From: Octopus sinensis
Taxonomy: Eukaryota
DNA length: 64,000 bases
NCBI RefSeq assembly: GCF_006345805.1
Contig: NC_042998.1
Coordinates: forward strand, 61,442,001-61,506,000
Reading direction: 5' to 3'
The translations under genes were made by a program, and so were the position numbers. Below the pieces are notes generated by a model. That model made no database searches, had not been told where the DNA came from, and was given only the letters and a program-made list of their open reading frames with translations. This document shows, piece by piece, positions 3,901 through 51,658 of the stretch (position 1 is the stretch's first letter; each line of letters starts with the position of its first letter).

Positions 3901-6900
3901 GCCAATAAAATATTCTGGTAGACACCCACTCGACTTTGTAAAAAGAAGCACTCTGCTATTAAGAACTCAGCTGTAGTTCTTCTCCTTGCAGTGAAGAGCA
4001 CCCTTGGAAGCTGGAGAGAAAACTTTCATTATTTCCAAAGTCCAGTCGCAATAAAATCTTCTGGTAGACACGAGATGCATTTATGGAAGCTAACCTTCCA
4101 GATGTTAGAGGAGAGATTAAAGTATTCGAAAGTGATGAGGCTGCTGGAGAGTATGAAATTCGATGTGTAATATTAAAAAAACCTTAAATAGAGATGGTAT
4201 TCTCTCAGGCTGACTCATGTATGCCAGATAGTTTGGACCTCTGGAAAGATACCAATCCAATGGCAATCTGGGGTGATATTCAAAATTTTTAAAAAGGGAA
4301 AGTATAGAGGAATCTCCTTGTTGAGCCTCCTTGATAAAGCCTAGGCTAGGTGTCAGAAAAAAGAAGTGTAAGTAAATTGCTGAGCCCAAGCTAACTGAAG
4401 GAATGAGTAGCATCTCTCCTAAATGCAGCACAACCAACCAGATATTCACTCTACAGTATATCTTCAAGAAATCGAGGGAATATTGCAAAGATGCACATGA
4501 TTTCTTTGTAGACCTTGAAAAGGCATATAACCATGATGGTGATACATGCTGTGGAGAATTTATGATTATTGAGCATTTTCTGGTTGCTGTGAAGTTCCTA
4601 TCTGTATGCCCTGGTGTCGACTTATAGTAAATAAATCTTCGTACAGAATAAAGGATTAATTCAATCAATGGAACAGCCTGCTCATGAAATGAATGTGTAA
4701 GTGATTGAGCATTCCACAAACATGCATACCCTTAATGTAGTTCTCAGGGAGATCCTGCATGACACAGAGTGTGACAAAGACAGCTTTTTAAATTACAACT
4801 TGTTTTTGTCAGCCAAGTGGACTGAAGCAACAAGAAATAATGTGTCTTGATCCAGTACACAATGCATCAGTAGGAATCGAACTTACAATCTTACAATTGA
4901 ATACCCTAAGCCACTTGCCTTCATATATATATATATATATATATATATATATATATACATAAAAGTAAATAAATGGTACAACGAAGCACCGGTATTTACT
5001 GGAAAATAGCGAACGTAATAAATACGATGCTAATGTATAGCTTCACTGCGTATGTACTAGTAAAGATGCATGTGTGCAACAAACATGAAAAAAATTGTCT
5101 TACCTCTAGGAAGAACATCTGAAAAATGAAAAACCTAGATAACGGATAATGCAGTACCGGTTTCGGATTTTTCAAAATACGCCTGCCAAACGTATATTTG
5201 ATTTATCCTCATCAGCTGCATAAACCTCGACAATATTTCAAATGTTGCCACATCTATGCCAGTACACTCATTTGAACGCCAAAACGTTGACAGAATGAGA
5301 ACAGGGAAGAAGTTTCAATGAAAATAGTAATGCAATACGAGAGTATTGCTTTCCAGTAAAGGATAGCCCGTGAGGGTAAAATTATACATAAAAGTAAATA
5401 ATTGGTACAACGAAGCACCGGTATTTACTGGAAAATAGTGAACATAATAAATACGACGCTAATGTATGTATATATATATATATATATATATATATTCAAG
5501 TTTGTTGAATTATGATAAAACATTTTTACATTAAATTGAAAGATAACAGGACACTTTTTGCAAAGAACATATTTATTATTCTTTAGCAAGAATAGTGTTG
5601 ACAGTGACTTCAAAGTTTCGGTCTATTTAGCCTTTATTGGACTGTCAATCCAATAAAAGCAAAGCTAGCCGAAACTTTGATGTTACTGTCGATACGTGCA
5701 GTGGCTTTTAGAACTAGCAAGTCGCTTGCATATTCTGTTGCAGATGTGGCATTCATATCCATGTGTTGCAAGTAAGTGTTCTCTCAGCACAACACCTTGA
5801 TTATGAACTTTTATGTGCCTTGTGAGTTTAGATCAGCTGGAAAATTTCTTACTACATATCAGCTTCGCTATCAGAAATTGTTATATGTCATAAACAACTG
5901 TTATGCATAATATGATACATAAAAAGTCAAGGAAGGCAGTGTAAATACATGATATCTCAGATGCTTAATCATCACACATGCATTCACATAAAGACACAGA
6001 CCTGTGAGAGAGTGGGAGAGAACATATGTAGACAAAATAAGAGAGACTTGGAGAGATAAACTGAGAAAAAGTAATAGACGAAGACATGAAATTTTTAGAA
6101 GTGTTATCGAAACTCTTTTAGCAAGTCAAATCCAACTTACAATGTCCTTAAATTGCTAAGGGTGCTGAAAGTTCCTGCCCCAATATATGTGATGTCATTA
6201 TGAAGGAGAGATCTGTAACATAAAAATGGAACCAATAAGAAGCTATACAGAACAGATTTGTTAAAAATATAACATATTAGGGTTAAATTTAATATAAAAT
6301 AAGAAATTGTTATTTACAGAAAATGAAAAATTAGTATGAATGAAATCAAACAAAATAGAGATATTTTGGTTAAATTTAATATGTACTTTTCAGATTTGCG
6401 TAATATATATAATAGGGAATGCATTGATTACATAAACCCTCCTCAGTTAAAACATCCAAAAAGTTTTTGAAATGCTTTAACTGAGAAAAGTTTACATAAT
6501 GGATGGATTTCCTATCATATATATTACATAAACCTGAAACGTTCATATTAAATTACTTCAGAATATCATTCTTTGATTTGACTTCATTATTACAACTTAT
6601 ATAATTCAATGAAAGTACAAACGAGTCAGTCTAGACTCCCCTAATGTGGATACTCTAACAAAAATTTAGAGTAGTTTGTTATATTTGAGTCGAAAATTCT
6701 AATATCATGCACCGGTTCTTAACGTAACAAAATATCTATCTATCTTTCTACAAACATACATATGTATACATATACATGCATCTTGCATGCATACAAACAT
6801 CTATGTATTTGTGTGTGTATGTGTGTGTACATACTCAACACGAGTGTGAATGCAAACACACACACATATATACACATACACACTTACGTATGTGTATAGA

Positions 6901-51658: not shown

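What the first reader, a model, noticed from the sequence alone, without database searches (positions are those of the whole stretch)
6141..51658. Period-4 higher-order code in the LRR array: (H-W-S-Y) x4 plus H-W-S
Seen: in transcript order the beta-strand starts read DLS, WLH, SLI, YLE / HLD, WLY, SLL, YLE / HLD, WLY, SLL, YLE / HLD, WLY, SLL, YLE / HLD, YLY, SLL. Other positions vary while this 4-repeat cycle holds. Known: these positions of LxxLxLxxN line the concave ligand-binding face of LRR solenoids. Inference: the protein displays a 96-aa binding module about five times with a regular aromatic/acidic ladder. That would suit multivalent binding of a periodic ligand such as a polysaccharide, fibrous protein or microbial surface polymer.
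Basis: partly seen in the sequence, partly recalled or inferred. Interest (0 to 1): 0.88.

Follow-up and report, generated by a model that had tools for sequence, protein, structure and literature searches.

The report
Octopus LRR receptor's conserved four-repeat code
The repeats are the outer part of an octopus adhesion receptor whose gene grew by copying blocks of small exons; a four-step pattern at two inward-facing residues is kept in a second octopus species, which likely means the same binding site is repeated, though no ligand has been tested.

Summary
The cycle is real: 19 intact 72-nt LRR exons, lag-4 matches 13/15 and 12/15 at positions x5 and x7 (p<1e-4), at no other position. The true order is D-W-S-Y, (H-W-S-Y)x3, H-Y-S, plus a 20th LRR. 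The gene is an annotated octopus LRR adhesion GPCR (LOC115224769). Its O. bimaculoides orthologue belongs to the published octopus-specific group 3 and is skin/sucker-expressed. The period comes from block duplication: exons 5-8 are a recent copy, introns included (4.5-4.9% diverged), and older intron flanks also cycle by four. Inheritance alone fits poorly: the orthologue has one module fewer yet keeps x5/x7 in 29/32 positions against 143/224 elsewhere, while these sites change fast in two of four paralogous arrays. So a narrow concave stripe is likely under purifying selection. Repeated ligand sites are my best reading (0.5); packing between neighbouring repeats is the main rival. Multivalent polymer binding, transcript order and an intact 7TM frame are untested. 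The scan found this receptor family before on other DNA; LRR super-repeats are known in print.

The parts
51587..51658 (-). LRR exon 1 (x5/x7 = D/S)
   Evidence: in NCBI model
51147..51218 (-). LRR exon 2 (W/H)
50116..50187 (-). LRR exon 3 (S/I)
49735..49806 (-). LRR exon 4 (Y/E)
44844..44915 (-). LRR exon 5 (H/D), recent copy of exon 9
   Evidence: 97% nt identity
42701..42772 (-). LRR exon 6 (W/Y), identical to exon 14
40922..40993 (-). LRR exon 7 (S/L), recent copy of exon 15
   Evidence: 93% nt identity
40565..40636 (-). LRR exon 8 (Y/E), recent copy of exon 16
   Evidence: 94% nt identity
37990..38061 (-). LRR exon 9 (H/D)
36628..36699 (-). LRR exon 10 (W/Y)
34599..34670 (-). LRR exon 11 (S/L)
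33819..33890 (-). LRR exon 12 (Y/E)
32790..32861 (-). LRR exon 13 (H/D)
28067..28138 (-). LRR exon 14 (W/Y)
26363..26434 (-). LRR exon 15 (S/L)
19765..19836 (-). LRR exon 16 (Y/E)
16662..16733 (-). LRR exon 17 (H/D)
11896..11967 (-). LRR exon 18 (Y/Y), off-pattern, not W class
6141..6212 (-). LRR exon 19 (S/L)
3358..3429 (-).
757..914 (-). LRR C-terminal cap exon
38450..45230 (.). Recently duplicated genomic block (approximate ends) carrying exons 5-8: mosaic of the exon 9 region (37097-38383) and the exon 14-16 region (17515-19988 and 26213-29169)
   Evidence: four aligned blocks, 4.45-4.93% substitutions

Best explanation
The 20 exons encode the leucine-rich-repeat head of an octopus adhesion GPCR; the four-step cycle arose by duplication of multi-exon genomic blocks, and selection has likely kept two inward-facing residues per repeat because each four-repeat module would present the same binding site for one fixed ligand. 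Shown: gene identity and domain order (signal peptide, LRRNT, 20 LRR, LRRCT, Cys-rich Ly6/uPAR-like domain, GAIN/GPS, secretin-type 7TM); symmetric one-repeat exons, so any whole number can be gained or lost in frame; a recent intron-inclusive copy that added exactly one module relative to O. bimaculoides; excess conservation of x5/x7. Inferred: x5/x7 face the concave side (LRR consensus; no model of this array obtained); ligand binding there; two to three equivalent sites that raise avidity or capture rate; signalling through GPS/7TM in skin and sucker tissue, judged from the orthologue. Step confidences: duplication origin 0.95, selection on x5/x7 0.8, repeated ligand site 0.5.
For: Gene identity: the exon downstream of the window is 100% identical to P0001 = LOC115224769, which maps exon by exon on this locus; Pfam GPS 3.9e-13, 7tm_2 2.3e-12. 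Duplication: four blocks of 0.8-2.5 kb differ by 4.45-4.93%, one age for a mosaic module; upstream intron flanks of the 15 older exons still show lag 4 and 8 (z 3.3, 3.0; within-class p = 1e-4); a second exon array in the same gene, 11 near-identical 2.74-kb units, shows that the locus duplicates such blocks readily. Selection: orthologue (100% supported clade) keeps x5 16 of 16 and x7 13 of 16; in the nine unambiguous C-terminal pairs 18 of 18 vs 95 of 126, p = 0.009; within-class pN/pS 0.14 at x5/x7, 0.07 in the leucine core, 0.58 convex (partly circular). Contrast: in near-identical exon pairs x5/x7 are unchanged 8 of 8 here and 36 of 58 in four paralogous arrays (p = 0.03, pairs not independent). 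Orthologue expression: skin 0.71, sucker 0.17 of the row total, Tau 0.96 (PMC6408891 supplement 2).
Against: No ligand, binding or structure data. All six concave positions together are not more conserved than the rest (39 of 54 vs 74 of 90); x7 alone is not significant (13 of 16, p = 0.13); x12 and x21 are also 9 of 9 in the C-terminal pairs. Pairing exons blind to concave sites does not recover the old classes (x5/x7 same in 14 of 28), and downstream flanks show no class signal (p = 0.12). The register is broken at both ends and O. bimaculoides has an off-register extra repeat. The locus was picked for its period, so in-register events are expected. Only two species compared. The first transmembrane exon is one base out of the family's frame in this assembly and the NCBI model skips it, so signalling by this copy is uncertain.
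Confidence: 0.5

Rival explanations
1. Packing code: bulky W/Y/H and small S residues stack along the beta-sheet, and only compatible neighbours give a stable solenoid, so order and residues are kept for folding, not for a repeated ligand site.
For: Only the two residues that stack from repeat to repeat are held while flanking concave residues drift; pN/pS at x5/x7 is near that of the core; the two junctions of the recent copy lie in CT-rich or TA-rich intron interiors without long homology, yet keep the register.
Against: Paralogous arrays tolerate many x5/x7 neighbours and change them fast (pN/pS 3.8 on C9, 2.8 on C25; 1.2 on C9192, 0.8 on C11394), so the fold does not need this order in general.
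Confidence: 0.2
2. Neutral relic: the period is only the footprint of block duplications, and the apparent conservation of x5/x7 is chance, ascertainment or closeness to the splice acceptor.
For: Multi-domain duplication is the usual way repeats expand (PMC1553488, passages); lag-4 signals also occur in 1 of 4 paralogous genomic arrays (z 2.7) and in one other protein of 11 tested (P0005, z 2.8); the tail array shows duplication without evident purpose.
Against: The cross-species test is independent of how the sites were chosen and gives p = 0.001; x5 codons vary synonymously within three of four classes, so the DNA next to the acceptor is not frozen.
Confidence: 0.15
3. One real site plus spacers: a single ligand binds one region (for example the well-conserved membrane-proximal repeats 12-20) and the extra modules only lengthen the arm.
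For: The N-terminal repeats are more diverged between species (15-17 of 24 identical) than the C-terminal ones (18-22 of 24), and all three x7 changes fall there; module number differs between species.
Against: x5 is kept in all 16 pairs, N-terminal ones included.
Confidence: 0.1
4. Combinatorial splicing: the symmetric exons are skipped in many combinations, so the genomic period is not what most proteins display.
For: All exons are 72 nt, phase 2-2, with near-identical splice signals.
Against: Models in two species include the exons in genomic order; a conserved order would be of little use if it were usually scrambled (inference).
Confidence: 0.05

Closest known systems
Octopus-specific adhesion GPCR expansion, group 3 (Ritschard et al. 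2019, PMC6408891; passages, section 18 and supplement rows seen)
   Same: The orthologue A0A0L8FLR8 / Ocbimv22014869m is listed in group 3 and carries the Death domain hits of that table; GPS plus adhesion 7TM, LRRs in some members.
   Different: The passages read mention LRRs only as a domain hit (5 of 22 sequences); the model used there holds only the last repeats. Exon-per-repeat structure, the period-4 code and its conservation are not described in what I read.
LRR super-repeats (STT motif of TLR7/8/9 and small leucine-rich proteoglycans; PMC1899181, passages seen)
   Same: A block of several LRRs repeated in tandem inside one solenoid.
   Different: There the unit is three repeats that differ in length class; here four repeats of equal length (24 aa) differ mainly at two exposed residues, and each is its own exon with the duplication junctions still visible.
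Nebulin-type block expansion of domain repeats (PMC1553488, passages seen)
   Same: Duplication of several domains at a time; a block of exons recurs with the block of domains.
   Different: Nebulin's link of super-repeat to filament period (recalled) has functional support; here no ligand is known.
Vertebrate ADGRG2/ADGRG6 and 24-residue LRR ectodomains (ALS, LRRC15, LGR4, VLR)
   Same: Best solved-structure matches: GAIN-7TM part to ADGRG2 (6.8e-52) and ADGRG6 (5.8e-48), LRR part to ALS, LRRC15, LGR4. An amphioxus VLR-like protein binds bacteria through two concave acidic residues (PMC4731796, passages).
   Different: No vertebrate receptor among these hits joins a 20-LRR head to a GAIN-7TM body; no somatic assembly as in VLRs is implied.

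Membership tests
Adhesion GPCR (class B2) | GPS motif with H-L-T cleavage consensus inside a GAIN domain | tested here: met
   Pfam GPS 3.9e-13 at 1113-1156; consensus present; GAIN-region match to ADGRG2/G6 structures for the orthologue. Cleavage itself not tested.
Adhesion GPCR (class B2) | Complete secretin-type seven-helix domain | tested here: inconclusive
   Orthologue covers profile 6-250; the local model only 79-250. All TM exons are in the genome, but the first is one base off the family's frame unless a nearby alternative donor is used.
Adhesion GPCR (class B2) | Long N-terminal adhesion-domain ectodomain with signal peptide | tested here: met
   Signal-peptide-like start with LRRNT (Pfam 3e-5), 20 LRRs, LRRCT, Cys-rich domain
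Octopus-specific group 3 (PMC6408891) | Falls in the group 3 clade | tested here: met
   Orthologue listed in group 3; this gene and the orthologue form a 100%-supported clade among 15 family proteins
Typical 24-residue extracellular LRR | LxxLxLxxNxL core with LRRNT/LRRCT caps | tested here: met
Typical 24-residue extracellular LRR | x5/x7 exposed on the concave face in this protein | not tested
   The structure job for the LRR region was never accepted. Assignment rests on the consensus: strand at positions 3-5, core at 1, 4, 6, 11 (PMC1899181).
LRR super-repeat proteins | Similarity peaks at a fixed multi-repeat lag | tested here: met
   lag 4 z 4.8, lag 8 z 5.5; orthologue lag 4 z 3.1
Multivalent receptor for a periodic ligand | Avidity rises with module number | not testable with these tools
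   needs binding assays
Glycoprotein-hormone/LGR receptors (first guess) | Rhodopsin-type 7TM after the LRRs | tested here: not met
   7tm_2 and GPS found, no 7tm_1 hit
Diversifying variable-LRR receptors (as some paralogues) | Fast replacement at x5/x7 among near-identical repeats | tested here: not met
   8 of 8 unchanged in recent pairs, although x2/x3/x8/x10 do drift

The most novel reading that the evidence does not exclude
An octopus skin receptor counts a repetitive ligand: each exon-built four-repeat module is one site for a repeating unit of a microbial, prey or matrix polymer (about 19 A along the sheet by recalled LRR geometry), species tune avidity by adding or removing whole modules, and this gene is the fixed-specificity member of a family whose other members diversify the same residues.
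Probability: 0.17. Interest if true: 0.8.

Novelty: new variant of a known kind. Interest (0 to 1): 0.42.

Why it matters
Octopus-specific adhesion GPCRs have no known ligands in what I read. This gene offers a sharp handle: a two-residue stripe that stayed fixed through duplications and a species split, in a family where the same stripe is often hypervariable, on a receptor whose orthologue is skin- and sucker-biased. Natural variants with two and three full modules make avidity directly testable. The locus also records, with junctions intact, how a super-repeat grows. If packing or history explains it, it is a tidy example of known repeat evolution.

Tried and rejected
LGR/relaxin-receptor identity, my first guess: rejected. 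No RNA holder listed; four runs laid on part of the array behaved as DNA, covering introns, and the best-supported joints shown (15 rows, 432 not shown) were repeat artefacts, so transcript order stays open. The structure model of the LRR-free O. vulgaris relative was poor (mean pLDDT 39); only residues about 226-322 show a beta-alpha-beta-beta-alpha-beta pattern that recalls a SEA domain, unconfirmed. The LRR structure job and fold searches were not accepted because the machine was busy. A 7tm_2 search of the genome did not list this locus among 124 matches of 150 candidates scored; the TM exons were found later by tblastn. Homologous recombination between matching introns as the reason for the kept register: not supported for the recent event, whose junctions lie in unalignable intron interiors. 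Assembly artefact for exons 5-8: rejected, the copies differ by about 4.7% and one carries a 6-kb longer intron. Literature: no paper holds any of the four gene ids in its main text, none holds all of LRR, exon duplication, concave, periodicity, tandem; searches listed no paper on this array. Subscription papers, figures and preprint supplements were not visible.

Full report
Observation. Nineteen 72-nt exons on the minus strand (51658 to 6141) each encode one 24-residue LRR, with AG/GT ends and phase 2 on both sides; a profile scan adds a diverged 20th at 3429-3358. Their order is D/S, W/H, S/I, Y/E, then (H/D, W/Y, S/L, Y/E) three times, then H/D, Y/Y, S/L. Lag-4 matches are 13 of 15 (x5) and 12 of 15 (x7), p = 5e-5, and stay significant with exons 5-8 removed; none of the other 14 variable positions reaches p < 0.01 at lag 4. 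The title's 'x4 plus H-W-S' is idealised: exons 1 and 18 are off-pattern.

The gene. The window is G000:C2:61442001-61506000. Comparing 100 kb on each side with paralogous loci revealed a signal-peptide/LRRNT exon 6 kb above the window, an LRRCT exon at 914-757 and two Cys-rich exons just below the window. One of these is 100% identical to P0001, named by its source LOC115224769 of Octopus sinensis; the model maps exon by exon here and includes all 20 LRR exons in order. It has GPS and 7tm_2 domains: an adhesion GPCR. The O. bimaculoides records P0003/P0022/P0023 (one cluster) group with it at 100% support among 15 family proteins. That orthologue, A0A0L8FLR8 = Ocbimv22014869m, is in group 3, the octopus-specific adhesion GPCR expansion of Ritschard et al. 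2019 (PMC6408891; supplement rows), with Tau 0.96 and expression shares of 0.71 in skin, 0.17 in sucker and 0 in axial nerve cord (gills were not sampled in that species). Caveat: in this assembly the first TM exon is one base off the family's frame and the model skips it.

Where the period comes from. Self-comparison shows intron-inclusive copies: exons 6-7 with 14-15 (2.6 kb), 8 with 16, 5 with 9. Tiling shows one continuous block, about 38450-45230, whose four aligned parts differ from their sources by 4.93, 4.45, 4.69 and 4.68%. Module 2 is thus a mosaic of H from module 3 and W-S-Y from module 4, of one age; an eight-exon duplication with loss of four exons would produce it (inference). 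O. bimaculoides has D-W-D-S-Y, (H-W-S-Y)x2, H-Y-S, N: one full module fewer and one off-register extra repeat. Older modules also arose from blocks: with exons 5-8 dropped, upstream intron flanks still peak at lags 4 and 8 (p = 1e-4), mostly through the W class; downstream flanks do not (p = 0.12). On the exon tree S (5 of 5) and Y (4 of 4) form supported groups, W 4 of 5, H is unresolved. The same gene has a second array, eleven 36-nt exons in near-identical 2.74-kb units. Duplication of several repeats at a time is the known mode of repeat expansion (PMC1553488, passages), and LRR super-repeats are known from TLR7-9 and proteoglycans (PMC1899181, passages).

Is the code selected? Across 16 orthologous repeat pairs (bimaculoides repeat 3 and local exons 5-8 left out; three N-terminal pairs assigned by order, not best hit) x5 is kept 16 of 16 and x7 13 of 16: 29 of 32 against 143 of 224 at other variable sites (p = 0.001) and 46 of 96 at equally variable sites. 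The nine C-terminal pairs give 18 of 18 vs 95 of 126 (p = 0.009). Within classes x5/x7 show pN 0.068 vs pS 0.485, close to the leucine core, whereas x2/x3/x8/x10 show pN 0.455 vs pS 0.461 (the within-gene figure is partly circular). Against: the six concave positions together are not enriched (39 of 54 vs 74 of 90), x7 alone is not significant, and blind pairing on convex and core sites does not recover old classes. An earlier scan note (e1-8663105) prompted a contrast with paralogues: in the four other arrays that one search pointed to (21, 13, 24 and 23 exons in the stretches fetched; C9 and C9192 look closely related) pN/pS at x5/x7 is 0.8, 2.8, 3.8 and 1.2; in near-identical pairs these sites are unchanged 36 of 58 there and 8 of 8 here. 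One of those four arrays shows a weaker lag-4 signal; among 11 proteins with eight or more repeats, out of 161 scanned (8 unrelated LRR hits left out), lag 4 reaches z 2.8 only in this gene, its orthologue and P0005. Both junctions of the recent copy lie in simple-sequence intron interiors without long homology, so register was not forced mechanically; but the locus was chosen for its period, so this is weak.

Mechanism. Most likely the solenoid presents a narrow aromatic/acidic stripe on its concave face, repeated two to three times, that binds one fixed ligand at the skin or sucker surface, with the GAIN-7TM body relaying binding or pull (0.5). Concave placement follows from the LRR consensus, not from a model; concave acidic residues bind bacteria in an amphioxus VLR-like protein (PMC4731796, passages), a precedent only. 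Rivals: packing between neighbouring repeats (0.2), neutral relic (0.15), one site plus spacers (0.1), combinatorial splicing (0.05). Its weak points are the drifting flanking residues and the expected horseshoe curvature of 20 repeats (recalled from TLR/ALS structures), which would not let all modules touch one straight fibre.

Limits. No RNA evidence was obtained, no structure of the LRR region, and only two species were compared.

Novelty. The family and the orthologue are in print, super-repeats are known, and the scan has noted this family on other DNA. I found no description of this array or its fixed code. New variant of a known kind; interest 0.42.

Noticed in passing
G000:C2, about 61347850 to 61320440 (94-122 kb beyond the window's low end; loci L010, L061-L063): Second exon array in the same gene: 11 copies of one 36-nt exon in 2.74-kb tandem units that differ by 0-11 bases, giving a 12-residue repeat in the cytoplasmic tail of the model; one copy has an altered donor context. 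Two further near-identical exons follow at 2.75-kb spacing.
   Followed up: partly
G000:C2, about 61548750-61569570 (loci L015-L017), + strand: Inverted, 88-96% identical partial copy of the gene lying head to head with it. It covers the signal-peptide region, LRRCT and Cys-rich exons but none of the 20 LRR exons, joined at a short interspersed repeat; stop codon in the first Cys-rich exon; ends at an assembly gap. The O. vulgaris model P0002 also lacks LRRs.
   Followed up: partly
G000:C2 about 61380250 (L007): First transmembrane exon is one base out of the frame that the family uses; assembly error, real truncation to a secreted ectodomain, or rescue by an alternative donor are all open.
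   Followed up: partly
G000:C2 about 61302900 (L064): The last exon resembles only the end of the Death domain that the O. bimaculoides orthologue carries (46% over 39 aa); no Death hit in the local model.
   Followed up: partly
L001:7501-7683 and genome-wide: The Cys-rich Ly6/uPAR-like exon has 72 matches among 80 candidates scored, many clustered on C29 and C27: a large family. Pfam support for the domain is weak (E 0.07 and 0.46).
   Followed up: partly
G000:C9192, about 64400-93000: A paralogous array carries its own four-repeat block twice with a different residue code (M/H, Y/D, D/Y, K/Y), lag-4 z 2.7.
   Followed up: partly
P0001 and P0022, just after the GPS: The tethered-agonist segment is one residue shorter and has T for the family's usual A, in both species.
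   Followed up: no
window 23117-24293 and 55449-56625: Two 97.6%-identical copies of a reverse-transcriptase retroelement fragment, one inside the enlarged intron between exons 15 and 16.
   Followed up: no
window-equivalent 84324-85862, G000:C2 about 61526300-61527900 (L013), - strand: Long open frames that do not look like repeats, possibly a neighbouring gene.
   Followed up: no
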